Part shown: piece after piece, positions 32,985 through 41,818 of the stretch | How the letters are laid out: every line of letters begins with the position of its first letter | Position numbering within the stretch: position 1 is the first letter of the stretch | Assembly: GCA_964565715.1 (NCBI GenBank) | Contig: CAZMGG010000011.1 | Coordinates: 121-64,120 of the forward strand | DNA from: an uncultured candidatus Brocadiaceae bacterium | Lineage (GTDB): Bacteria; Planctomycetota; UBA1135; UBA2386 | Reading direction: 5' to 3' | Length of the DNA: 64,000 bases | Position numbers and translations under genes: made by a program | The notes under the pieces: model-generated | What the model was told of the DNA's origin: nothing | What the model saw: only the letters and a program-made list of their open reading frames with translations | Database searches by the model: none

Positions 32985-34337
32985 TCAGCCGTCCTGGCCG
33001 CCCCAGCGTGGCTCCTGCAGTTCCTTCTCCCACGCCGCCAGCGCCGCCAGCATCGCCTCGAGCCGCTCGCCTTCGTCGGCGGCCCGGTCGTGCCGCTCGC
33101 CGCGGTCGCGCCGCAGGTCGAACAGCTGCGGCGACTGGCCCTCGGCGCCGCGCAGCCACACCAGCTTCCACGGGCCGCGCCGCATCGCCACCGGCCCCTT
33201 GCCGCCATCGATGCGCCAGAACAGGTCGCGCTCGGGCAGCGCGTCCACCGCGCCCCGCAGCCGCGGACCGAGATCGATGCCATCCAGGCGCCATTCCTGC
33301 TCGACCTTGCCGCCGGCCGCGGCCACGAACGTCGGCAGCAGGTCCAGCAGGATCACCGGCTCCTCCAGCACCGTGCCGGGCTGCACCACGGAGGGCCAGC
33401 GGAACGCCAGCGGCACCCGCACGCCGCCCTCCCAGACCTGGCCCTTGCGGCCGCGCAGCGGGCCGTTGTCGGCGCCGGTCTGGGTCTGGCCGCCGTTGTC
33501 GTTGCTGAACACCACCAGGGTGCGGTCGGCGAGGCCGTGCTCCTGCAGCGCGTCCAGCACCGTGCCCACCGCGCGATCGAGCCCGACCAGCAGCCCGAGG
33601 TTGTTGGCCCGGCGCTCCGGCAGCCCGGCCGGTACCCTGGCGCGGTCGGCGGGCTTCGGCTGCAGCGGGCCGTGGGTGGCGGTGAACGACACCATCAGGA
33701 AGAACGGCCGATCCTTGTGTCCGGCGATGTAGCGAGCCGCCGCGGCGCCGAACCGGTCGGTGACGAAGCCCCGCTCGGGCACCGGCTCGCCGTTCTCCTG
33801 GATCACCTGATGCGGCGAAGGGTCGGCGATCGGCTGGTAGCGGCGCGCGCCCTGCAGCAGGCCGTGGAAGAAGGCGAAGCCGCGGCGGTTCGGGTGGTAC
33901 TCGGCGGGATAGCCGAGGTGCCACTTGCCGACCAGGGCGGTGTCGTACTGCAGCGCCGTGAGGCGGTCGGCGACGGTGCGCTCGGCGAGATCCATGCCGC
34001 CCTGCATGTAGCCCGGCGGGATGTTGCGTTCGTGGCCGAAGCGCTGCTGGTAGCGGCCCGTCAGCAGGCCGGCGCGCGATGGCGAGCACACCGCGCCGGT
34101 CACGTAGGCGTCGCTGCAGCGGGCGCCGTCCTTGGCGATCGAGTCGATGCGCGGCGTCAGCGTGCGGCAGTCGGCGGCGGCATCGGGCTGGAAGCCGAAG
34201 TCGGCGAAGCCGGCGTCGTCGCTGAACAGCAGCACGATGTTGGTGGGGGCGGGCTTCGGCGCGGGTGGCGGCGGCGTCGGGTCCTGGGCGAGCAGGGGGA
34301 GGGCGAGGAACTGGAGCGCGAGGACTCGGTGCCGCAT
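32985..34337 (-). CDS. secreted sulfatase (formylglycine-dependent arylsulfatase family)
   Basis: Signal peptide MRHRVLALQFLALPLLAQ. NIVLLFSDDAGFADFG and the CSPSRAGLLTGR formylglycine motif (C-x-P-x-R) are present. Confidence 0.88.
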   Translation of the reverse strand: MRHRVLALQFLALPLLAQDPTPPPPAPKPAPTNIVLLFSDDAGFADFGFQPDAAADCRTLTPRIDSIAKDGARCSDAYVTGAVCSPSRAGLLTGRYQQRFGHERNIPPGYMQGGMDLAERTVADRLTALQYDTALVGKWHLGYPAEYHPNRRGFAFFHGLLQGARRYQPIADPSPHQVIQENGEPVPERGFVTDRFGAAAARYIAGHKDRPFFLMVSFTATHGPLQPKPADRARVPAGLPERRANNLGLLVGLDRAVGTVLDALQEHGLADRTLVVFSNDNGGQTQTGADNGPLRGRKGQVWEGGVRVPLAFRWPSVVQPGTVLEEPVILLDLLPTFVAAAGGKVEQEWRLDGIDLGPRLRGAVDALPERDLFWRIDGGKGPVAMRRGPWKLVWLRGAEGQSPQLFDLRRDRGERHDRAADEGERLEAMLAALAAWEKELQEPRWGGQDG

Positions 34338-34494
34338 GGGGCGATGGTAGCGGCCGGGCTCCGACGACCGGCGTATCATTGCGTTCGGGCGAACGCGGTG
34401 CGCGGGAGGTTGGCCCGTCCTTGCGGCGGTCGGATGGGACCGGTACCAAACGAGGGCTGCCGGCGCGTCGGTGCGCCCTGCGAGGATCCTGCCC

Positions 34495-35544
34495 ATGAAC
34501 GCCAACTCCTTCCTGTTCCCCTTGCTGGTCGTCGTCGCCAGCCCGCTGGCGACCGCCCAGACCCTCGTCTTCGCCACCGACTTCGATGGCGCGCTGCCGG
34601 CGGCCGTCCAGCCGGGCGCTGCGATGCTCGAGGGCGTCCAGGGCTACGCCACGCTCGGCCCGAGCGGGGCGCCGTTCGGCGGCAACATGCTGCGCAGTCC
34701 CACCGGCAACGTCGTCACCCTGCAGCTCACCAACCTGCCGCCGCACAACGCGATCAGCCTCGACTTCCTGTTCGCGGCCATCGACTCGCTGGACGGCACC
34801 GGCACCTATCCGTCCGGCGACTTCTTCAAGATCACGTTGGATGGCAACCCGATCTTCCGCGAGTCCTTCGCCAATGCGCTGGCCTCCCAGGTGCAGAGCT
34901 ACGTGCCGCCGCCGGGGGTCGAACTGGCGCGCCGGGTCGATCTCGGCTTCACCCAGGGCTTCTACTACCTGGACAGCGCCTACTGGCTCGGCAACGATCC
35001 GCAGTTCGCGCGCATCGGCCACACGGCGGCTACCGCGACCTTCACCTTCGAGATGGAAGGGCCGGGCATCCAGCCGCTGTACGACGAGTCGTGGGGCATG
35101 GACCGGCTCCACGTCACGGTGGACTCGGTGACGCACCCGGGATCGGCCACGGCCTACGGCACCGGTTGCGGTCCGACCCTGGCGGCCACCGCGCCGCCGC
35201 GCATCGGCCAGACGCTGCCGCTGCTGATGCAGAACCTGCCGGCGTCGAGCGTGCTGGCGTTCCTGGCGATCGGCGACTCGGCAACCCAGTTCGGTGCGTT
35301 GCCGTTGCCGCTGGCGTTGGACGGTTATGGCGCGCCCGGCTGCTGGCTGCTGCACGACCTGCGCTACAACGGCAGCTCGCCGATGCTGCTGCTCGGCACC
35401 AGCGCGGTGGCCGACATCGCCATCCCGGGGCAGGCGATCTACGCCGGGTTCGTGTTCCGCCTGCAGGGCTGGGCGATCGCACCGGGCAGCAACACGGTGG
35501 GCGTGGTGTTCAGCAACGGCCTGCAGGTGCAGGTGGGGCAGTAG
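34495..35544 (+). CDS. secreted hypothetical protein carrying the shared C-terminal module
   Basis: MNANSFLFPLLVVVASPLATAQ signal peptide (an alternative GTG start is at 34471). The C-terminus reads ...ADIAIPGQAIYAGFVFRLQGWAIAP...VFSNGLQVQVGQ. Confidence 0.6.
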   Translation: MNANSFLFPLLVVVASPLATAQTLVFATDFDGALPAAVQPGAAMLEGVQGYATLGPSGAPFGGNMLRSPTGNVVTLQLTNLPPHNAISLDFLFAAIDSLDGTGTYPSGDFFKITLDGNPIFRESFANALASQVQSYVPPPGVELARRVDLGFTQGFYYLDSAYWLGNDPQFARIGHTAATATFTFEMEGPGIQPLYDESWGMDRLHVTVDSVTHPGSATAYGTGCGPTLAATAPPRIGQTLPLLMQNLPASSVLAFLAIGDSATQFGALPLPLALDGYGAPGCWLLHDLRYNGSSPMLLLGTSAVADIAIPGQAIYAGFVFRLQGWAIAPGSNTVGVVFSNGLQVQVGQ

Positions 35545-36543
35545 CTACCGCAGGTCCGCCCGCGTCACCGCGCCGTCGCCGTTCCGATCGGCGCGCTGGA
35601 AGGCCGCCGGCGGGCCGCCGAACTCGTCCAGGGTGACCCGGCCGTCGCCGTTGAGGTCGAACCGGCCGACGAAGTCGTCGCCGGTGACCATCTTCTTGTA
35701 GCGATCGACCTCCTCGCGGCTCACCGCCGCGTCGCGGTTCTGGTCGATCAGCTCGAACAGCGCGCGATTGCCCTGCCACTCGTTCTGCTCGACGCGCCCG
35801 CTCTTGTCCTTGTCCCATTCGTCGAACGGCACCGGATACGGCTGCGGCCGGCCGCGGTCGCGTTCCTCCTGCTGCAGGCGCTCGCCGATCAGGTACAGCA
35901 GGCGCTGCAGTTCGTCGCGGTCCAGCGCCTGGTCCTTGTCGCGATCGACGTGGGGCAGCGCCAGAAGCAGCTCCTTCATGCGGTCGAACTCGCGGCCGGA
36001 CACCTTGCCGTCGCCGTCCTTGTCGAGCCGCTTCAGGATCGCGTCCGGATCCAGGTACTCGCCGCGGAGCTCGGGCAGGGGCGGCTTCGGCGGCGGCGCG
36101 GCGGCGCGGGCCTCGCTGAGGTCCTTCTGGTCGATCACGCCGCTGCCGTCGAGGTCCAGCGTCGCGAATGCCGCCTCGCTGCCGGTCCACTCGGCGCGGG
36201 TCACCTTGCCGTCGCGGTTCGGGTCGAAGCGGGACAGGACGGCGAGGCGCTGCAGGGCCAGCGACTCGGCGGTGGCGCGCGGTCGCGGCTCGACCTTGTT
36301 GCGGTAGCTGGCGCGCAGGAAGCGCTGCGCCACCTCGCTGGTGACGAACTCGTCGGCGCCGACGCTGCCGTTGCGATCCTTGTCCATCTGCGCGAACTGG
36401 CGGTCCGAGCCCGGGAACTCCTTGCGCTCGAGGCTGCCGTTGCCGTCCTGGTCGAAGGCCTCGAACTGCTGGCGCAGGAGCTTCTGCTCGTCCTGCGCGA
36501 ACAGCGGACCGACCAGCAGGAAGAGCAGGGCGAGGCGTCTCAT
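35545..36543 (-). CDS. secreted EF-hand calcium-binding repeat protein
   Basis: Signal peptide MRRLALLFLLVGPLFAQ. About ten DxDxDG-type loops are present (DQDGNGSLERKEF, DKDRNGSVGADEF, DPNRDGKVTRAEW, DLDGSGVIDQKDL, DKDGDGKVSGREF, DKDKSGRVEQNEW, DLNGDGRVTLDEF, DRNGDGAVTRADL and others). Its ATG overlaps the upstream gene stop (ATGA). Confidence 0.85.
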   Translation of the reverse strand: MRRLALLFLLVGPLFAQDEQKLLRQQFEAFDQDGNGSLERKEFPGSDRQFAQMDKDRNGSVGADEFVTSEVAQRFLRASYRNKVEPRPRATAESLALQRLAVLSRFDPNRDGKVTRAEWTGSEAAFATLDLDGSGVIDQKDLSEARAAAPPPKPPLPELRGEYLDPDAILKRLDKDGDGKVSGREFDRMKELLLALPHVDRDKDQALDRDELQRLLYLIGERLQQEERDRGRPQPYPVPFDEWDKDKSGRVEQNEWQGNRALFELIDQNRDAAVSREEVDRYKKMVTGDDFVGRFDLNGDGRVTLDEFGGPPAAFQRADRNGDGAVTRADLR

Positions 36544-39527
36544 CGGGGTCTCCGGGGAGCGGATGGCGAGGTGCGCAGCTCGCCGTAGCGGCCCTCGGCC
36601 TCGCGGCCGACCGGCACCTCGGCGCGCAGCACGCGCAGCATCTCGTCGCGGGTGAGGTAGCGGCAGTCCTCGTGGCTGATGTCCTTCTCCCAGCGGCCGC
36701 GTTCGTCCTGCAGGCGGTCGAAGGCCATCTCCTCGAAGTGCAGGTCGCGGACGCCCTGCAGGCTGTCCCAGGTGGTCAGGTCCTGCAGGCCGGTGGGCAT
36801 GCGGCTCGCATCGAGCAGGTGGCCGAGGCCGCCGGCACCGCTGGCGACGACGAATTGCTGCAGGAAGGGCGCGTTGTAGACGCGCAGCAGGCGCAGCCGG
36901 CCGGTGCCGCCGTAGACGCGGACGTTGCCCTGGGCGCGGGCGGGCTCCAGGGGATTGGAGATGTCGTAGGCGGTGACGCGGAGCTGGCGGTTCTGGTCGT
37001 CGCCCTGCTCGGCCAGCACGAACAGGTAGTCGCGTTCCTGGCTCCTGATGCCGCCGCCCTGGCTGCCGAGGTCGAACTGGGTGTTGCAGGCCACGCCGCG
37101 CACGTCGGCGCGGTCGCGGGGGAAGGTGCGCTCGTGGCGGGGGCCGTGCAGCACCTGCGGCTTGCCCGGCTCGGTGAAGTCGACGAGGCGGACGCCGTCG
37201 AGGCCGCAGGCCACCGCGGCGAGGTGGCGGGCGGGGCTGCGGCCGATGCGCTCGCCGAGCGGATCCTGGGCCTTGGTGCGCGAATACTGGAAGAAGGCGG
37301 TGACGTCGGTGGCCTCGTTGGGGGCGCCGCTCTCGCCGTTCAGGTCGACGCTGGCCAGCACCTTGGGCTGCTGCGGGTCGGCGACGTCGGCGATCACGAG
37401 CCCGCCGGGGCCGTCGGCCACCAGCAGCCAGGGCCAGGCGAGGTGCAGCGCGCGGGCCTGGATGGTCGGCAGCGCCGCCAGCAGCTTCGGCCGGTCGGGC
37501 TTGTCGAGGTCGAAGATCAGCACGCCGCCACTACCGTCGGCGACGTAGAGGTGATCGCCCTGGACCAGGGCGGCGCGCGGGTCCTGCAGTTCCTTGCGGC
37601 TGCCGACGAGGCGGGGCTGCACGGGGCTCTGCAGGTCGACGACGTGCAGCGAGCCGTCGCTGGCGCCGACGTAGGCGTGGGTGGCCTGGGCGGTGGCCGG
37701 ATGGCTGCGCAGGCCGAGCGCGCGGGGATCGCCGGGCAGCGGCAGGTCGGCCACCGGCGTGGTGCGGGCGGGCTGCTTGCCGTCGAAGGCGATGGTCCAG
37801 AGGCCACGGCCGGTGATGGCGTAGCCGAACTCGCGGGTCAGGCGGAAGTTGATCGAGCCGAGCCCCCAGGTGGCGGGGCTGCGGTGGCACTCGACGCAGG
37901 TGCGCGCCTCGGGCCGGGTGGTGTGGGTCTGGTGTGGCACCAGGGTCACGCCCGACAGGCCCGCCGCGGTCACTGGCAGGCCCTGGTGCAGGACGGTGTT
38001 GCCGTTCTTGTCGTGGGCCGAGCCGATGGTGGAGAAGCCGACCATGTAGGGCGCCACCTGCTGCTCGTGGTTGAAGCCGAGCCGGAGCTGGTTGAAGGCC
38101 GCGAACACCTTCTCCTGGGTCGTGACGCGGCCGTCGGTGCGGCGGCCGGAGATCAGGTCGAGCTGGGTGAACTGCTCGTTGCGGTCGAAGTGGAAGCCGA
38201 AGAAGTTGACGTTCCAGCCCGAGTGGCAGGCATAGCACTCGAGGCGGCCGTGCTCGCTGGTCATCGCCGCGGCGGCGCGGGGATTCCACTCGGGCCGGGT
38301 GCGGTCGACGACGTGGGCCGCCTGGGTGACCTTGTGGCGCCTGCCGGTGACCTTGCTGACCAGGAAGAACTCGTCGTCCTCGCGGTGCAGGTTCTTCACC
38401 CGGCGGCCCTTGCTGGTCAGCAGGTCGGACACCCGGTCGACGGTGCCGTGGCAACTGGTGCACTCGATCTCGACGGCGTGGTCCATCTGCGGCCACAGGT
38501 TGCCGTCGCCCATGGTGTCAGAGCTGGTGTGGCAGTCGATGCAGTGCATGCCGCGCTGGTGGTGCACGTCGGGCGGCGTCAGGTCCTGGTCCTGGATGTA
38601 GAAGGCGCCGTTCTGCAGCTTGTCGGTGGTGCCGGGCACCTCGGGCCCCGCCGGCATGCCGGGCACCAGCTGGGCCAGGCCGCGGAAGGACAGGCCGATG
38701 CTGGCGTCGCCGTAGTGGCAGCGGGCGCAGGTGTCGGTGGTGACCCGGCTGGTCATCCGGTGCTGCAGTGGGTGGCCGGGCTCGCGCTTGTCGATGGTGG
38801 GGTCGTTGCTGCGCGAGCGGCCGTCCTCGGCGTAGGGCACGTGGCAGGCCGAGCACCCTTCGCCGCGGTAGTCGCCATCGAGACCGACGCGGCCGCGCAC
38901 GCCGCGGCCGACGCTCCACAGGTGGCACTGCATGCAGGCCTTGCGCGGCAGGTCGGAGTAGTGGGTGGCGATGTCGCCGGGTCTGCCGTTGCCGGTGTGG
39001 GCCGGCACCTGGCTGACGGCGCGCAGCGCCTTGTCGGGCACCTCGCCGTCGTCGTCGCGGGCGGCGAACACGCCGTAGGCCGGCCGCTTGCCCCGGGCGA
39101 GCCCGTGCTCGTAGTAGCCGTCGCCGAGATGGCCGGTGGTGGTGGCGTGCAGCGACTTCAGCACGTTGTCGACGTAGCGGTCGTGGCAGGTGCCGCAGGT
39201 CTGTCGCACGACGCGCAGGTTGGACGGGTTGCGGAAGCGCTGCCACTCGAGGTCGAAGTTCTCCGGCAGCACCCGCTCGTCGCCCGGCACCGGCTGCTTC
39301 GGCAGCACGTGGGCCCGGTCCTTCTCGGCGGCGCTCTCGTCGCCGCCGTGGCAGTCGACGCAGCGCAGCGGGAAGCCCGGATGGATCTCCTCGATGCCGC
39401 CGTGGCACTGCAGGCAGCCGTTGCGCGCGGGGGCGCCGGAGGCGGCGCGGGCCGCGGGCTGGTCCGGCAGGAGGCTCGCGCCGAGCAGCGGCAGCAGCAG
39501 CAGGGCGAAGGTGGCGAGGCGGCGCAT
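36540..39527 (-). CDS. decaheme c-type cytochrome fused to a C-terminal LVIVD-repeat beta-propeller-like domain
   Basis: Signal peptide present. Ten CxxCH motifs counted: CLQCH, CVDCH, CGTCH, CMQCH, CSACH, CARCH, CIDCH, CTSCH, CYACH, CVECH. The C-terminal half carries repeats GGVLIFDLDKPDRPKL, GGLVIADVADPQQPKV, GVRLVDFTEPGKPQV and RVTAYDISNPLEP. Confidence 0.85.
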   Translation of the reverse strand: MRRLATFALLLLPLLGASLLPDQPAARAASGAPARNGCLQCHGGIEEIHPGFPLRCVDCHGGDESAAEKDRAHVLPKQPVPGDERVLPENFDLEWQRFRNPSNLRVVRQTCGTCHDRYVDNVLKSLHATTTGHLGDGYYEHGLARGKRPAYGVFAARDDDGEVPDKALRAVSQVPAHTGNGRPGDIATHYSDLPRKACMQCHLWSVGRGVRGRVGLDGDYRGEGCSACHVPYAEDGRSRSNDPTIDKREPGHPLQHRMTSRVTTDTCARCHYGDASIGLSFRGLAQLVPGMPAGPEVPGTTDKLQNGAFYIQDQDLTPPDVHHQRGMHCIDCHTSSDTMGDGNLWPQMDHAVEIECTSCHGTVDRVSDLLTSKGRRVKNLHREDDEFFLVSKVTGRRHKVTQAAHVVDRTRPEWNPRAAAAMTSEHGRLECYACHSGWNVNFFGFHFDRNEQFTQLDLISGRRTDGRVTTQEKVFAAFNQLRLGFNHEQQVAPYMVGFSTIGSAHDKNGNTVLHQGLPVTAAGLSGVTLVPHQTHTTRPEARTCVECHRSPATWGLGSINFRLTREFGYAITGRGLWTIAFDGKQPARTTPVADLPLPGDPRALGLRSHPATAQATHAYVGASDGSLHVVDLQSPVQPRLVGSRKELQDPRAALVQGDHLYVADGSGGVLIFDLDKPDRPKLLAALPTIQARALHLAWPWLLVADGPGGLVIADVADPQQPKVLASVDLNGESGAPNEATDVTAFFQYSRTKAQDPLGERIGRSPARHLAAVACGLDGVRLVDFTEPGKPQVLHGPRHERTFPRDRADVRGVACNTQFDLGSQGGGIRSQERDYLFVLAEQGDDQNRQLRVTAYDISNPLEPARAQGNVRVYGGTGRLRLLRVYNAPFLQQFVVASGAGGLGHLLDASRMPTGLQDLTTWDSLQGVRDLHFEEMAFDRLQDERGRWEKDISHEDCRYLTRDEMLRVLRAEVPVGREAEGRYGELRTSPSAPRRPR

Positions 39528-39531
39528 CGCC

Positions 39532-40719
39532 TCAGGCGAACAGGTCCCGGATCACCCTGCCCGACATGGTCTTCGGCGGCTGCCGGCCGAACAGCGACAG
39601 CACCGTCGGCGCCACGTCGTGGGTCTGCGCCTCGGTCCTGCTGACCTTGTTGCGGGCGAAGTCGGGCCCGGCGGCCACCAGGAAGACCTTGCGCAGCTCG
39701 TCGCTGCTGTCGCCGTGGTCGAGGCCGTTGCGCTCGTTGAGGTCCTTGTCGCGGCCGAACTCCGGCAGCACCAGGATCGCGGTCCTGTCCTTCAGGTCGG
39801 GGTCCTGCTGCACCGCGTCCCACAGCCTGCCGAGTTCCTGGTCGTTGCGCCGGATCACCTCGACGTAGCCGTTGTAGGAGCCGTGCGCGATGTCGGCGTT
39901 CTGCAGGGTGATGCCCAGCAGCTTCGGCTTGAACACCCGCAGCATGTTGAGGCCGACCCGGATCGCCTTGGCGTCGCCGGCGCCGGGCCCGGTCACCTTG
40001 GCGGTGTTGCCGGTCAGCTCGTCGAGGATGAACTTCTCCACCCGCCGCACCTGGGTCGGATCCGGCGCCTGGCCGCCCTTCATGGCCTGCAGCGCCGCCG
40101 GATCCAGCGCCGCGGCAAGCCGGTCGAGGGTGGCGGCGTCGCGCTCGGAGTCGGGCTTCGGCCGGCCGAAGGTCGCCAGCACCTTCTGGAACTCGACGTT
40201 GAAGATGCCATCGCCATCCAGCACCTGGGCGCCGAACGCCTCGCCGTAGTCGGGGTGGTCGCTGCAGGCGAACAGCCGGCCCTGCACGCCGCCGGCGGTG
40301 CTGAGCCAGACGTCGCCCGGGCCGAAGCCCGCGTCCTTGCGCAGGTGCTCGAACAGCGTCGGGTTGAGCCCGCGCTGGTTCTCGCGGATGCCCATCACCT
40401 CGACGTTGCCGGTGAAGATCGACAGCGCCGCGCCATAGTGGCCGACGTTCTGGCAGCGCACCTGCGGGATCGCCACGCCCTGACTGGCGATGCGCATCAG
40501 GTTCGGCACGTTCGCCGGCGTGCCGAGGCAGTCCTTCATCCGCACGCCGCCGGCGAACGCGACCACGACGACGTGCTCGGTCCTCGGCGGCGGGGTCCAC
40601 AGGCCGCCCAGCAGGCCGTCTTCCCGCAGGCAGCCGTCGAGCTGCGGCAGGGCGGCCGCGGCGGCGGCGCCGGCCAGGAAGTCGCGGCGGGAGGGGCGGC
40701 GGTCGCGGGGCTGGGTCAT
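39532..40719 (-). CDS. DUF1501 family protein (sulfatase-like fold) with Tat signal
   Basis: MTQPRDRRPSRRDFLAGAAAAAAL is a twin-arginine leader. ...DHGDSS... and the overall 395-aa size are typical of DUF1501. Confidence 0.8.
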   Translation of the reverse strand: MTQPRDRRPSRRDFLAGAAAAAALPQLDGCLREDGLLGGLWTPPPRTEHVVVVAFAGGVRMKDCLGTPANVPNLMRIASQGVAIPQVRCQNVGHYGAALSIFTGNVEVMGIRENQRGLNPTLFEHLRKDAGFGPGDVWLSTAGGVQGRLFACSDHPDYGEAFGAQVLDGDGIFNVEFQKVLATFGRPKPDSERDAATLDRLAAALDPAALQAMKGGQAPDPTQVRRVEKFILDELTGNTAKVTGPGAGDAKAIRVGLNMLRVFKPKLLGITLQNADIAHGSYNGYVEVIRRNDQELGRLWDAVQQDPDLKDRTAILVLPEFGRDKDLNERNGLDHGDSSDELRKVFLVAAGPDFARNKVSRTEAQTHDVAPTVLSLFGRQPPKTMSGRVIRDLFA

Positions 40720-40804: not shown

Positions 40805-41818
40805 TCAGTAGTACTGGTACTCCACCGAGCCGACCAGCGACCGCACCAGCAGCGCCGGGGTAGAGCCCTGGGCCAGTTCGCCCTGGAACGCCTGCGCCTC
40901 GGCCGCCGACGGCTCCCGCGCCAGATACCGCGCGAAGCACTCGCGGACGAAGGCCGGGCCGTCCTGGCCCGCCGCCGGCAGGTCGGCCTTGCCCGAGTCG
41001 AGGATCAGCTTGGCCAGCACCGCCTTGAGCGGCGCCGGGTCGGCCATCGACTGCAGGGCGTTGCGCAGGTTGCGCAGCTCGTCGTGGTCGGGCACCCGCT
41101 GCAGCAGGTCCATGTAGAGCCCGCGCAGGAACTGCCGCTCGCTCTTCGGCTTCGGCCGCAGGAGCGCCGTGCGATACGCCTCGCCCTGCAGCCAGCGGCC
41201 CAGCACGGCGAAGAACGTGCGCCAGTCCGCCTGCACCTCGGCGACCTCGGGCGCGTCCTTTGGCAACGGCGCGTCCAGCAGGCGCCGGTGGTGGCGGTCC
41301 AGCAGGTGCCGCGCGCAGTCCGCGTGGGCCAGCACGATGCGGATCACGTCGGCCTGGTTCTGCCCTTCCTCGCCGAGGAAGCGCGCCTTCCTGCCGTCGT
41401 AGAGCCTCTTGCCCGCCTCCAGGATCGGCTTCGTCCGCCGATCCTGCACCGTGTAGCCGAGGCACTGCTCGAGCACCACGGTGACGAAGGTGTCGTTGCC
41501 GGGATTGCGCTGCGAGAAGCCGGTGCTGAGCAGGATCTCCGCCAGCGCGTCCCGCGCCGTCAGCTCGCCGCGCTGCAGCTGCAGCGGCACCCGGTCGACG
41601 CCCTCGCCGCGCGGGCGGAAGTTGTCGATCAGGAGGAAGTAGTAGAGCTCCTCCTCGAACCAGGCGGTCATCGCCTCCCGCGAGCCGAGCAGGCGCGGCA
41701 GGACCGCCGCGAGATCGGCGCCAACGTAGGCCGCCCGTTCGCCGGGGCTCGGCCCGCGCTGCAGCGTGTCGTAGCACAGGCGCTGCAGCAGGCGCAGGGT
41801 GACCTTGGTCTCACGCAT
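40805..41818 (-). CDS. DUF1549/DUF1553-like helical repeat protein (usual partner class of DUF1501), lacking any cytochrome motif
   Basis: Three copies of the motif resembling FLRRxYLDLxGRxPxxxE: LLQRLCYDTLQRGPSPGE, FLRGLYMDLLQRVPDHDE and FVRECFARYLAREPSAAE. Start chosen at ATG 41818. Confidence 0.55.
   Translation of the reverse strand: MRETKVTLRLLQRLCYDTLQRGPSPGERAAYVGADLAAVLPRLLGSREAMTAWFEEELYYFLLIDNFRPRGEGVDRVPLQLQRGELTARDALAEILLSTGFSQRNPGNDTFVTVVLEQCLGYTVQDRRTKPILEAGKRLYDGRKARFLGEEGQNQADVIRIVLAHADCARHLLDRHHRRLLDAPLPKDAPEVAEVQADWRTFFAVLGRWLQGEAYRTALLRPKPKSERQFLRGLYMDLLQRVPDHDELRNLRNALQSMADPAPLKAVLAKLILDSGKADLPAAGQDGPAFVRECFARYLAREPSAAEAQAFQGELAQGSTPALLVRSLVGSVEYQYY

What the first reader, a model, noticed from the sequence alone, without database searches (positions are those of the whole stretch)
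36540..39527. Decaheme cytochrome c fused to an LVIVD-repeat propeller-like domain
- **Seen in the sequence.** The N-terminal roughly 560 aa carry ten CxxCH motifs, which I listed and counted.
- **C-terminal half.** The remaining roughly 430 aa contain repeats of the type GG(V/L)(L/V)I(F/A)D(L/V)xxPxxP(K)(L/V): GGVLIFDLDKPDRPKL, GGLVIADVADPQQPKV, GVRLVDFTEPGKPQV, TAYDISNPLEP.
- **Established knowledge.** LVIVD repeats form beta-propellers of unknown function. Multiheme cytochromes of this size act as electron conduits or multi-electron redox enzymes.
- **Inference.** A propeller covalently attached to a ten-heme wire suggests a substrate- or partner-binding head on an electron-transfer module, possibly a novel periplasmic or extracellular oxidoreductase.
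Basis: partly seen in the sequence, partly recalled or inferred. Interest (0 to 1): 0.62.

Follow-up and report, generated by a model that had tools for sequence, protein, structure and literature searches.

The report
Ten-heme cytochrome with inserted propeller domain
This is a real, well-conserved gene of uncultured Planctomycetota for an exported ten-heme electron-carrying protein with a seven-bladed propeller domain built into it; it always sits beside an enzyme-like protein of unknown function and a calcium-binding module, so it is probably one part of an unstudied electron-transfer machine outside the cytoplasm.

Summary
Window 36540-39527, minus strand, encodes a 995-aa exported protein with ten CxxCH heme motifs (aa 38-548). 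These are followed by an LVIVD-type region that AlphaFold2 models as a seven-bladed beta-propeller.

New here:
- The heme part is a partial relative of the uncharacterised Geobacter cytochrome ExtM.
- The propeller (aa ~566-930) is an insertion into that fold, not a C-terminal add-on. The last ~40 conserved residues match the segment that follows the equivalent heme in propeller-less relatives.
- An eleventh ancestral heme motif has changed to an almost invariant FFGFH motif.

All ten motifs and eleven further His are invariant in 47 homologues. That is enough for bis-His ligation of every heme, so it is probably a wire rather than a catalytic heme enzyme.

In 36 species-level Planctomycetota MAG loci:
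- A Tat-exported DUF1501-like protein lies directly upstream in 33 of the 33 loci that have upstream DNA.
- An EF-hand module is present in all 36, fused in 21 and a separate gene in 15, as here.

No paper found describes the family. The most likely role is the electron-transfer and docking subunit of a variant of the DUF1501-cytochrome modules of Planctomycetes. The chemistry is unknown.

The parts
36540..39527 (-). g3: the 995-aa decaheme cytochrome c with inserted LVIVD propeller (the finding)
   Evidence: ORF and translation. Ten CxxCH motifs. Pfam Cytochrome_C7, Cytochrom_c3_2 and LVIVD. At least 961 homologues (only 8000 candidates scored), nearly all 'hypothetical protein' of Planctomycetota MAGs.
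39444..39527 (-). Sec-type signal peptide, about aa 1-28 (MRRLATFALLLLPLLGASLLPDQPAARA); no lipobox Cys
   Evidence: Read from the translation. The first Cys is C38. The cleavage site is inferred, not predicted by a tool.
37833..39443 (-). ExtM-like multiheme cytochrome module, aa ~29-565, with ten CxxCH motifs
   Evidence: NCBIfam ExtM NF040943 scores 225.7 bits over aa 33-365, against a cut-off of 800. All ten motifs align with the CxxCH motifs of 26-27 of 27 propeller-less relatives. All ten are invariant in 47 homologues.
38157..38204 (-). Degenerate eleventh heme motif: FFGFH (aa 442-446) inside the near-invariant stretch FFGFHFDRNEQFTQLD
   Evidence: Aligns with CxxCH in 18 of 27 stand-alone relatives and 3 of 10 full-length cluster representatives. 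All 36 aligned loci at 41-69% identity carry the degenerate non-Cys form (N[FL][FLM]GFH; Ser replaces the His in L024). The four divergent loci keep NC[FY]GCH. AF2 pLDDT is below 50 at aa 444-462.
36738..37832 (-). Seven-bladed beta-propeller, aa ~566-930. Blades 2-5 are clear LVIVD units; blades 1, 6 and 7 are diverged.
   Evidence: AF2 strands 562-935, mostly pLDDT above 90. Foldseek matches only propellers: cd1 NirS, Sb-PTE and WD40 proteins, at E about 1e-7. The only sequence match among solved structures is the LVIVD-type propeller Sb-PTE, 5hrm, E 4.6e-6. Pfam LVIVD.
36543..36737 (-). C-terminal return segment, aa 931-995, with conserved motif FDRLxDExGRxxKDISHE..RYL..EM and invariant H952
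   Evidence: An HMM of this tail hits propeller-less ExtM-like cytochromes 25-35 residues after the heme equivalent to heme 10. E-values go down to 7e-10, while reversed and shuffled decoys score 0.46 or worse. H952 is invariant in 47 homologues and is His in 13 of 27 stand-alone relatives.
35545..36543 (-). g4: secreted 332-aa protein with ten EF-hand loops in five pairs. Its ATG overlaps the g3 stop codon (ATGA).
   Evidence: Pfam EF-hand_1, _5, _6 and _7, E 1e-34 to 1e-40. Loops listed, pI 4.98, overlap shown. An EF-hand module is present in 36 of 36 related loci, fused to g3 in 21.
39532..40719 (-). g2: Tat-exported 395-aa DUF1501-like, alkaline-phosphatase-fold protein. Its stop lies 4 nt before the g3 ATG.
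   Evidence: TAT_signal plus weak DUF1501, Metalloenzyme and Sulfatase hits. DUF1501 hits in 11 of 11 orthologues, best E 3e-6. RRxFL is invariant. Distant match to S1_8A sulfatase 9bes, E 4e-7. It lies upstream of g3 in 33 of 33 loci that have upstream DNA.
40805..41818 (-). g1: roughly 337-aa helical DUF1549/DUF4214-like protein. The start is uncertain and no signal peptide is evident.
   Evidence: Weak DUF4214 hit. The orthologue in L003 has faint PSCyt2 and DUF4214 hits. Found upstream of g2 in 25 of 33 loci. In L002 the same domain ends an 878-aa protein with a heme-motif N-terminus and a PKD domain.

Best explanation
g3 is an exported c-type cytochrome whose ten covalently bound hemes, probably all ligated by two histidines, form an electron wire of the ExtM type.

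Shown:
- A seven-bladed LVIVD beta-propeller is inserted into a surface loop just after the last heme.
- The chain then returns to the cytochrome with a conserved helix carrying His952.

Inferred:
- The propeller is held rigidly against the heme-10 end of the wire.
- The protein is not an enzyme on its own. It is the electron-transfer and docking subunit of a four-part module outside the cytoplasm.
- The other parts are a Tat-exported DUF1501-like alkaline-phosphatase-fold protein (the likely catalytic partner), a DUF1549-like helical protein and a multi-EF-hand calcium-binding module.
- Electrons pass along the hemes between periplasmic carriers and the partner docked on the propeller or on the remodelled former heme-11 pocket.
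- Ca2+-loaded EF-hands stabilise or anchor the assembly.

Not known: the direction of electron flow and the substrate.
For: Heme module:
- Ten CxxCH motifs far above chance, all invariant in 47 homologues.
- Eleven non-motif His are also invariant: 49, 73, 127, 133, 252, 256, 322, 426, 446, 535 and 952.
- Position 127 alternates His/Met across the superfamily, as axial ligands do.
- There is no CxxCK motif.
- Partial ExtM homology.

Propeller and insertion:
- The full-length AF2 model has pTM 0.84 and a high-confidence seven-blade propeller. Foldseek finds only propeller matches.
- The tail is homologous to the post-heme segment of propeller-less relatives.

Operon:
- Tight spacing in the window: a 4-nt gap before g3 and an ATGA overlap after it.
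- g2 lies upstream in 33 of 33 loci with upstream DNA. An EF-hand module is present in 36 of 36 loci and fused in 21. These are species-representative loci at 41-69% identity.
- g2 is at least as conserved as g3 (52-71% against 47-68% identity in the same loci) and has an invariant twin-arginine motif.
- Loss of the heme-11 cysteines coincides exactly with the clade that has g2 and EF-hands.

Precedent: DUF1501 genes are known to pair with cytochrome-bearing partners, including a PSCyt1/WD40 cytochrome-propeller protein (Kamneva et al. 2012, PMC3542564).
Against:
- No model of the complex could be made, so contact between g3 and g2, g1 or g4 is inferred from gene order and fusion only.
An open, catalytic heme therefore cannot be excluded.
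- Alkaline-phosphatase-fold proteins are hydrolases wherever they have been characterised, so a redox role for g2 is unproven.
- The link between heme-11 loss and gain of g2 rests on a single clade, which means one evolutionary event.
- A divergent subfamily keeps the cytochrome-propeller without g2. The protein can therefore function without that partner.
Confidence: 0.55

Rival explanations
1. Cell-surface or extracellular electron conduit. The decaheme wire would deliver electrons to, or take them from, an insoluble or external acceptor, as Geobacter and Shewanella outer-surface cytochromes do. The propeller would bind the surface or substrate, and the Ca-binding EF-hand or dockerin tail would anchor the protein to the envelope.
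For: - The heme module is related to ExtM, which is encoded in a Geobacter cluster implicated in selenite/tellurite and Fe(III) reduction.
- The divergent subfamily ends in a dockerin type I domain, a Ca-dependent anchoring module.
- LVIVD repeats are described as cell-surface repeats.
- The same genome has an MtrC/OmcA-like decaheme next to a 13-heme cytochrome on contig C176.
Against: - No porin or beta-barrel, secretion or sorting component is conserved next to the gene.
- g3 has only a Sec signal peptide and no lipobox.
- The invariant partner is a soluble Tat-exported enzyme-like protein, which suggests a periplasmic complex.
- MtrC/OmcA family models score far below their cut-offs (13.7 bits against 209).
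Confidence: 0.2
2. Self-contained enzyme of the cytochrome-plus-propeller type, like cd1 nitrite reductase or quinohemoprotein dehydrogenases. The propeller would hold a metal or organic cofactor where the chemistry happens, and the hemes would only feed it.
For: - The best Foldseek matches include cd1 nitrite reductase, 1h9y, E 7e-8.
- The only solved LVIVD-type propeller, Sb-PTE 5hrm, is an enzyme; from memory, it carries a binuclear Mn centre.
- Non-repeat motifs in blades 5-7 are strongly conserved (FQYSR, FDLGSxGGxIxSxExDY, YNxPFLQ). They include the acidic D819, E831 and D833.
Against: - No His or Cys is conserved inside the propeller, aa 566-930. NirS-, NosZ- or Sb-PTE-like metal or heme ligation is therefore not supported.
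- The Foldseek matches are generic, at 9-14% identity.
- By strand topology, the conserved patches fall on A-B hairpins of the blades next to the insertion point. That fits an interface with the cytochrome domain (inference).
Confidence: 0.12
3. Redox handling of a metal cation, for example Fe(II) or Mn(II) oxidation or metal reduction. Carboxylate-rich sites on the propeller and the acidic ten-EF-hand protein would bind the cation or its product.
For: - g4 is acidic (pI 4.98) with ten cation-binding loops.
- There are invariant acidic residues in the propeller and the tail: D819, E831, E932, D937 and D949.
- The EF-hand protein gives a sub-threshold hit to lanmodulin, 63 bits against a cut-off of 135.
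Against: - The EF loops are canonical Ca2+ loops. Only one of the ten has the Pro at loop position 2 that (from memory) is characteristic of lanmodulin.
- Nothing in the operon resembles known Fe- or Mn-oxidising systems.
- This reading is purely compositional.
Confidence: 0.06

Closest known systems
ExtM (GSU2935) of the Geobacter sulfurreducens extHIJKLMNOPQS cluster; NCBIfam NF040943
   Same: Homologous multiheme module. It scores 225.7 bits over aa 33-365. All ten heme motifs, several distal His and the C-terminal segment align with propeller-less ExtM-like cytochromes of 600-700 aa found in Desulfobacterota, Shewanella, Ferrimonas and others.
   Different: - The score is far below the equivalog cut-off of 800.
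- It has 10 hemes, not 12: archetype heme 10 has changed to FFGFH and heme 12 is absent.
- A 365-aa propeller is inserted.
- There is no extN/O/P/Q (Rieske / cytochrome b) context.
- ExtM itself has no demonstrated function.
DUF1501 + PSCyt/DUF1549/DUF1553 gene modules of Planctomycetes and Verrucomicrobia, including the four-gene type with a PSCyt1/WD40 protein (Kamneva et al. 2012, PMC3542564)
   Same: A Tat-signal DUF1501-type protein is encoded next to a DUF1549-like protein and a cytochrome c fused to a beta-propeller. Kamneva et al. propose electron transport outside the cytoplasm; the function is unknown.
   Different: - The cytochrome here is a ten-heme ExtM-like wire, not a single-heme PSCyt1 domain.
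- The propeller is LVIVD type and inserted, not WD40.
- g2 is a divergent DUF1501 relative, below the Pfam cut-off in the window copy.
- An EF-hand module is an obligatory extra part.
Cytochrome cd1 nitrite reductase NirS (PDB 1h9y, 1gjq, 6tpo)
   Same: Cytochrome c and a beta-propeller in one periplasmic polypeptide. It is among the top Foldseek matches.
   Different: - From memory, NirS has one c heme and an eight-bladed propeller that binds heme d1.
- Here there are ten hemes, seven blades and no conserved His in the propeller to ligate a cofactor.
- Identity is 12-14%, a generic propeller match.
Sb-PTE phosphotriesterase of Sphingobium sp. TCM1 (PDB 5hrm, 5ioj)
   Same: The only solved structure whose sequence matches the LVIVD-type repeats, E 4.6e-6. 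Foldseek E 2e-7.
   Different: It is a stand-alone hydrolase (from memory, seven-bladed with a binuclear Mn centre ligated by His and Glu) and has no hemes. The window's propeller has no conserved His that could form such a site.
Hydrazine synthase and its non-anammox homologues (PMC12758564)
   Same: Heme c domains combined with six- or seven-bladed propellers in Planctomycetota. The beta subunit has a functional insertion in blade 6, and the window's propeller also has a conserved special hairpin in blade 6.
   Different: No sequence or fold match to HZS chains appeared. The gene order and partners differ. This was considered and rejected as a relative.

Membership tests
c-type multiheme cytochrome | Several CxxCH heme-attachment motifs in an exported protein, conserved in homologues | tested here: met
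   Ten motifs, all invariant in 47 homologues. An N-terminal signal peptide is present. Shuffles give a mean of 0.03 motifs.
ExtM equivalog (NCBIfam NF040943) | Whole-protein score of at least 800 bits | tested here: not met
   225.7 bits, covering profile positions 17-304 of 599.
ExtM equivalog (NCBIfam NF040943) | Twelve hemes, and a position in an ext cluster with ExtN and Rieske/cytochrome b ExtO/ExtP | tested here: not met
   Ten hemes. The neighbours are DUF1549-like, DUF1501-like and EF-hand proteins, with no Rieske or cytochrome b. The cluster composition comes from PMC5877670.
ExtM-like superfamily (homology only) | Collinear alignment of the heme motifs and the C-terminal segment with propeller-less relatives | tested here: met
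   phmmer E 1e-58 to 1e-89 over aa ~30-580. Motif columns are Cys/His in 26-27 of 27 relatives. The tail HMM gives E down to 7e-10, against 0.46 or worse for decoys.
LVIVD repeat (Pfam PF08309) | Score above the gathering cut-off of 20.2 bits | tested here: met
   34.6 bits, E 1.2e-8, 3 stretches. The hit is also precomputed for most homologues.
Beta-propeller fold | Four-stranded antiparallel sheets arranged around an axis, and a fold match to known propellers | tested here: met
   AF2 gives 28-29 strands between aa 562 and 935, mostly with pLDDT above 90. All 50 listed Foldseek matches contain propellers, with probability 0.99-1.00. The count of seven blades comes from the strand list; coordinates could not be inspected.
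OmcA/MtrC and DmsE/MtrA decaheme families (TIGR03507, TIGR03508) | Family model score above the cut-off | tested here: not met
   13.7 bits against 209.3, and 9.1 bits against 192.2.
Catalytic multiheme enzymes (NrfA, ONR, HAO, OTR) | Active-site heme with an unusual or missing distal ligand (for example CxxCK in NrfA), and family-level similarity | tested here: not met
   No CxxCK. The only match is a local 54-residue match to NrfA 6v0a at E 2.4e-4. NCBIfam NrfA scores 8.3 bits against 595. There are enough invariant His for bis-His ligation of all ten hemes. Actual ligation was not verified in 3D.
DUF1501-cytochrome module of PVC bacteria | A DUF1501 protein with a Tat signal encoded next to a cytochrome-bearing partner | tested here: met
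   g2 has an invariant RRxFL motif. DUF1501 is hit in 11 of 11 orthologues, best E 3e-6, although the window copy reaches only E 0.0078 and 15.8 bits against a cut-off of 27. Adjacency holds in 33 of 33 loci.
DUF1501-cytochrome module of PVC bacteria | The partner carries PSCyt1/PSCyt2/PSD1 domains | tested here: inconclusive
   g1 gives only a weak DUF4214 hit. Orthologues give faint PSCyt2 hits. One orthologue has an N-terminal heme-motif domain. g3 has no PSCyt domain above threshold (PSCyt3 E 0.12).

The most novel reading that the evidence does not exclude
The four-gene cassette would be a new kind of periplasmic oxidoreductase.

- The catalytic subunit would be the Tat-exported alkaline-phosphatase-fold protein g2. 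It has an invariant His94 at the position of the sulfatase formylglycine nucleophile, plus DxAH and LDHGD motifs that could hold a redox-active metal.
- The decaheme g3 would wire it. Its remodelled former heme-11 pocket (FFGFHFDRNE) and its propeller would form the docking and electron port.
- If so, the large DUF1501 family of Planctomycetes and Verrucomicrobia, unexplained since 2004, would consist of redox enzymes rather than hydrolases.
Probability: 0.25. Interest if true: 0.85.

Novelty: new variant of a known kind. Interest (0 to 1): 0.55.

Why it matters
DUF1501 and the planctomycete-specific cytochrome families are among the largest unexplained gene families of Planctomycetes and Verrucomicrobia. 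They have been suspected of electron transport since 2012, without any assay.

This cassette is the variant with the clearest redox signature:
- The heme carrier is a ten-heme wire.
- The DUF1501-like partner lies directly upstream in every locus with upstream DNA, and the Ca-binding module is fused to the wire in most species.
- The cassette occurs in roughly one in six sampled Planctomycetota genomes, from groundwater, lakes, sea water and activated sludge.

It therefore gives a defined, compact target (three or four proteins) for finding out what DUF1501 proteins do.

For cytochrome evolution, it is also a clean example of domain grafting into a multiheme fold combined with pruning of two hemes.

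Tried and rejected
- **Cytochrome-only model.** AlphaFold2 on aa 30-566 with 12 orthologues failed (mean pLDDT 34). No fold comparison of the heme module alone was possible. Model coordinates are not exposed, so heme-ligand pairing and the domain interface could not be measured.
- **Foldseek on the full model.** It returned only generic propellers in the 50 rows shown and nothing for the heme part.
- **Sequence search of solved structures.** The full-length profile gave nothing useful: a local NrfA match at E 2.4e-4.
- **Hydrazine-synthase relationship.** Considered because of the heme-plus-propeller theme and the blade-6 insertion. Rejected, because there was no match.
- **Family membership.** ExtM equivalog, MtrC/OmcA, DmsE, NrfA and HmcA membership were all rejected on score.
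- **Home-made LVIVD HMM.** A model built from four units recognised only those four. Blades 1, 6 and 7 are supported by the model only.
- **Divergent subfamily.** The 391-aa ORF upstream of the divergent homologue in L049 was tested as a hidden g2 and is not one (hhalign probability 0.8%).
- **Shewanella context.** The ExtM-like gene in Shewanella phaeophyticola is an orphan and gives no functional clue.
- **Promoter and terminator scan.** Uninformative across the operon.
- **Literature.** Searches for LVIVD with multiheme or cytochrome, and for multiheme with beta-propeller and Planctomycetes, found no description of this architecture.

Full report
**1. The observation**

The finding's coordinates are exactly an open reading frame on the minus strand (36540..39527, ATG start, 995 aa). 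In this roughly 73% G+C genome it is the frame with coding-type composition, with GC3 0.96 and GC2 0.49.

The product starts with a Sec-type signal peptide and has no cysteine before C38. It has ten CxxCH motifs at aa 38, 56, 111, 198, 225, 267, 329, 356, 431 and 544, and no CxxCK. Shuffled versions of the protein give a mean of 0.03 motifs.

Pfam finds Cytochrome_C7, Cytochrom_c3_2 and LVIVD. LVIVD scores 34.6 bits against a cut-off of 20.2, in three stretches.

**2. Conservation**

A search of 5.8 billion proteins gave at least 961 homologues (only 8000 candidates were scored). The top 120 are full length (about 950-1340 aa), and every source name that gives a taxon is a Planctomycetota MAG, annotated 'hypothetical protein'.

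In an alignment of 47 homologues at 45-79% identity:
- All ten CxxCH motifs are invariant.
- Eleven further His are invariant: 49, 73, 127, 133, 252, 256, 322, 426, 446, 535 and 952.

In a sample of 301 Planctomycetota genomes, 58 had a match. About 46 of those matches are full length at 46-53% identity, spread over many families. None of the four sampled genomes of the window's own family has one.

A scan of one genome per species found the full-length architecture only in Planctomycetota MAGs, from groundwater, lakes, the Black Sea, the open ocean, vents and activated sludge. Propeller-less relatives at 28-35% identity occur in Desulfobacterota, Shewanella, Ferrimonas, Chromatiaceae, Methylomirabilia and others.

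**3. The heme module**

NCBIfam's best hit is ExtM, the 12-heme cytochrome of the Geobacter ext cluster. The score is 225.7 bits against an equivalog cut-off of 800, and it covers only aa 33-365. ExtM has no demonstrated function. The protein is therefore an ExtM-like relative, not an ExtM.

An exhaustive HMMER search showed many stand-alone cytochromes of 600-700 aa that align with aa ~30-580 at 33-38% identity. They carry 9-12 heme motifs.

A joint alignment shows the following:
- All ten motifs of the window protein align with motifs of these relatives (26-27 of 27).
- His73, 256, 322 and 535 are conserved across the whole superfamily.
- Position 127 alternates between His and Met, which is the behaviour of an axial heme ligand.

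There are enough conserved His for bis-His ligation of every heme and no sign of a catalytic heme. I could not verify the pairing in three dimensions.

**4. The propeller is an insertion (new)**

AlphaFold2 on the 47-sequence alignment gave mean pLDDT 80.9 and pTM 0.84. Residues 560-970 mostly have pLDDT above 90 and consist of 28-29 beta strands, which is seven four-stranded blades.

Foldseek against the PDB returned only propellers: cd1 nitrite reductase, the Sb-PTE phosphotriesterase, WD40 proteins and DDB1. E-values are about 1e-7 and identity is 8-14%. The only sequence match among solved structures is Sb-PTE (5hrm, E 4.6e-6), through LVIVD-type repeats.

The last roughly 40 conserved residues (FDRLxDExGRxxKDISHE..RYL..EM, aa 936-970) do not belong to the propeller. 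A profile of this tail hits the propeller-less ExtM-like cytochromes:
- The hit always lies 25-35 residues after the heme equivalent to heme 10.
- It lies directly before their last heme motif.
- E-values go down to 7e-10, while reversed and shuffled decoys score 0.46 or worse.

So the propeller (aa ~566-930) sits inside a loop of the cytochrome fold, and the chain returns afterwards. By the strand order of the model, the last strand (928-935) completes blade 1 together with strands 562-596. The entry and exit of the propeller are therefore adjacent, as a domain insertion requires. This last point is an inference.

**5. Two ancestral hemes were pruned (new)**

Residues F442, F445 and H446 align with the Cys, Cys and His of a further heme motif. 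That motif is present in 18 of 27 stand-alone relatives and 3 of 10 full-length cluster representatives.

Across the related loci:
- All 36 aligned loci at 41-69% identity carry the degenerate non-Cys form (N[FL][FLM]GFH) within a near-invariant stretch ending in RNE.[FL][ST]QLD. In L024 a Ser replaces the His.
- The four divergent loci at 35-41% identity keep NC[FY]GCH.

This is one of the most conserved stretches of the protein, yet the model is unsure there (pLDDT below 50 at aa 444-462). The final heme of the 12-heme archetype is also absent.

**6. Context**

On the minus strand the order is g1, g2, g3, g4:
- g1 (40805-41818) is DUF1549/DUF4214-like.
- An 85-nt gap follows.
- g2 (39532-40719) has a Tat signal and is DUF1501-like.
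- A 4-nt gap follows.
- g3 is the cytochrome.
- Its stop overlaps the start of g4 (ATGA). g4 (35545-36543) is a secreted acidic protein with ten EF-hand loops.

In 36 main-clade loci from different species:
- g2 lies directly upstream in all 33 loci that have upstream DNA.
- g1 is found in 25.
- An EF-hand module is present in all 36, fused to the C-terminus of g3 in 21 and a separate gene in 15. Two of the fusions were confirmed with Pfam.

g2 is at least as conserved as g3 (52-71% identity). It has an invariant RRxFL twin-arginine motif and hits DUF1501 in 11 of 11 orthologues. It is distantly related to sulfatases (9bes, E 4e-7). In a weak alignment, its invariant His94 falls at the formylglycine position of sulfatases.

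The divergent subfamily that keeps heme 11 ends in a dockerin domain and lacks g2.

Kamneva et al. 2012 (PMC3542564) described DUF1501 genes paired with planctomycete cytochromes, including a PSCyt1/WD40 cytochrome-propeller protein. They proposed electron transport of unknown purpose. The present cassette is a variant of that theme with a much larger heme complement.

**7. Mechanism**

*Shown:*
- An exported decaheme ExtM-like cytochrome with an inserted seven-blade LVIVD propeller.
- Obligatory genomic coupling to a Tat-exported alkaline-phosphatase-fold protein and an EF-hand module.

*Inferred:*
- The hemes form a bis-His wire.
- The propeller carries no conserved His or Cys. It is a docking platform held at the heme-10 end.
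- The conserved A-B hairpins of blades 5-7 (FQYSR, FDLGSxGGxIxSxExDY, YNxPFLQ) lie next to the insertion point and probably pack on the cytochrome.
- g2 is the catalytic partner.
- The EF-hands give Ca-dependent stability or anchoring.

I put 0.55 on this reading. The rivals are:
- A surface electron conduit anchored by the Ca-binding tail (0.2).
- A propeller that is itself catalytic (0.12).
- Metal-cation redox chemistry (0.06).

**8. Novelty**

No paper in the searchable library describes a multiheme-LVIVD protein.

Earlier notes of this scan describe the same cassette in other genomes and read it the same way. They are not independent evidence. I re-derived the operon conservation here and added four points:
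- the insertion topology;
- the pruned hemes;
- the His/Met ligand position;
- the dockerin subfamily without g2.

I class the finding as a new variant of known kinds (ExtM-like cytochromes and DUF1501-cytochrome modules). Its interest is moderate to high, because it offers a compact handle on the long-unexplained DUF1501 family.

**9. Limits**

- There is no model of the complex.
- The cytochrome-only model failed.
- No cultured carrier was identified.

Noticed in passing
window 40805-41818 (-): g1 (DUF1549-like) shows no recognisable signal peptide from any plausible start, although all its partners are exported. Its ORF cannot start far upstream, because tatD occupies the other strand from 41799. 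It might be co-exported with the Tat-signal protein g2 by hitchhiking, or the start may be mis-set.
   Followed up: partly
L002 1368-4004 (+): In one relative the g1 domain is the C-terminal end of an 878-aa protein. Its N-terminus has a planctomycete-cytochrome-like motif (C-A-T-S-G-C-H, a CX4CH spacing), followed by a faint Pfam PKD_4 hit. This ties the cassette to the PSCyt/DUF1549 families.
   Followed up: partly
own genome, contig C176 (outside the window): A 967-aa decaheme with MtrC/OmcA-like repeated segments (TIDFKVMIHKIH...) lies next to a 356-aa protein with 13 CxxCH motifs. This is a possible extracellular electron-transfer cluster in the same organism. It is not a paralogue of g3.
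   Followed up: no
own genome, contig C18 (outside the window): A 543-aa membrane-anchored octaheme cytochrome whose sequence looks like the hydroxylamine-oxidoreductase / octaheme nitrite reductase class. It was not scanned against any family library.
   Followed up: no
window 32985-34577 (-) and 34471-35544 (+): A sulfatase gene (Pfam Sulfatase, E 3.5e-45) lies downstream of the cassette. It is separated from it by a 357-aa plus-strand ORF with coding-type GC3 and no family hit. Neither is conserved next to the cassette in other genomes.
   Followed up: partly
L024, and G229:C120: One orthologue has Ser in place of the otherwise invariant His446 of the FFGFH motif. In another genome the gene appears as two adjacent pieces (aa 10-727 and 740-972), which may be a frameshift or an assembly error.
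   Followed up: no
L071 3968-5833 (+), Shewanella phaeophyticola: Cultured Shewanella and Ferrimonas species carry stand-alone ExtM-like cytochromes. The one in L071 is 621 aa and scores 308 bits against the ExtM model, below its cut-off. It has no ext-cluster neighbours. These could serve as tractable models for the heme module.
   Followed up: partly
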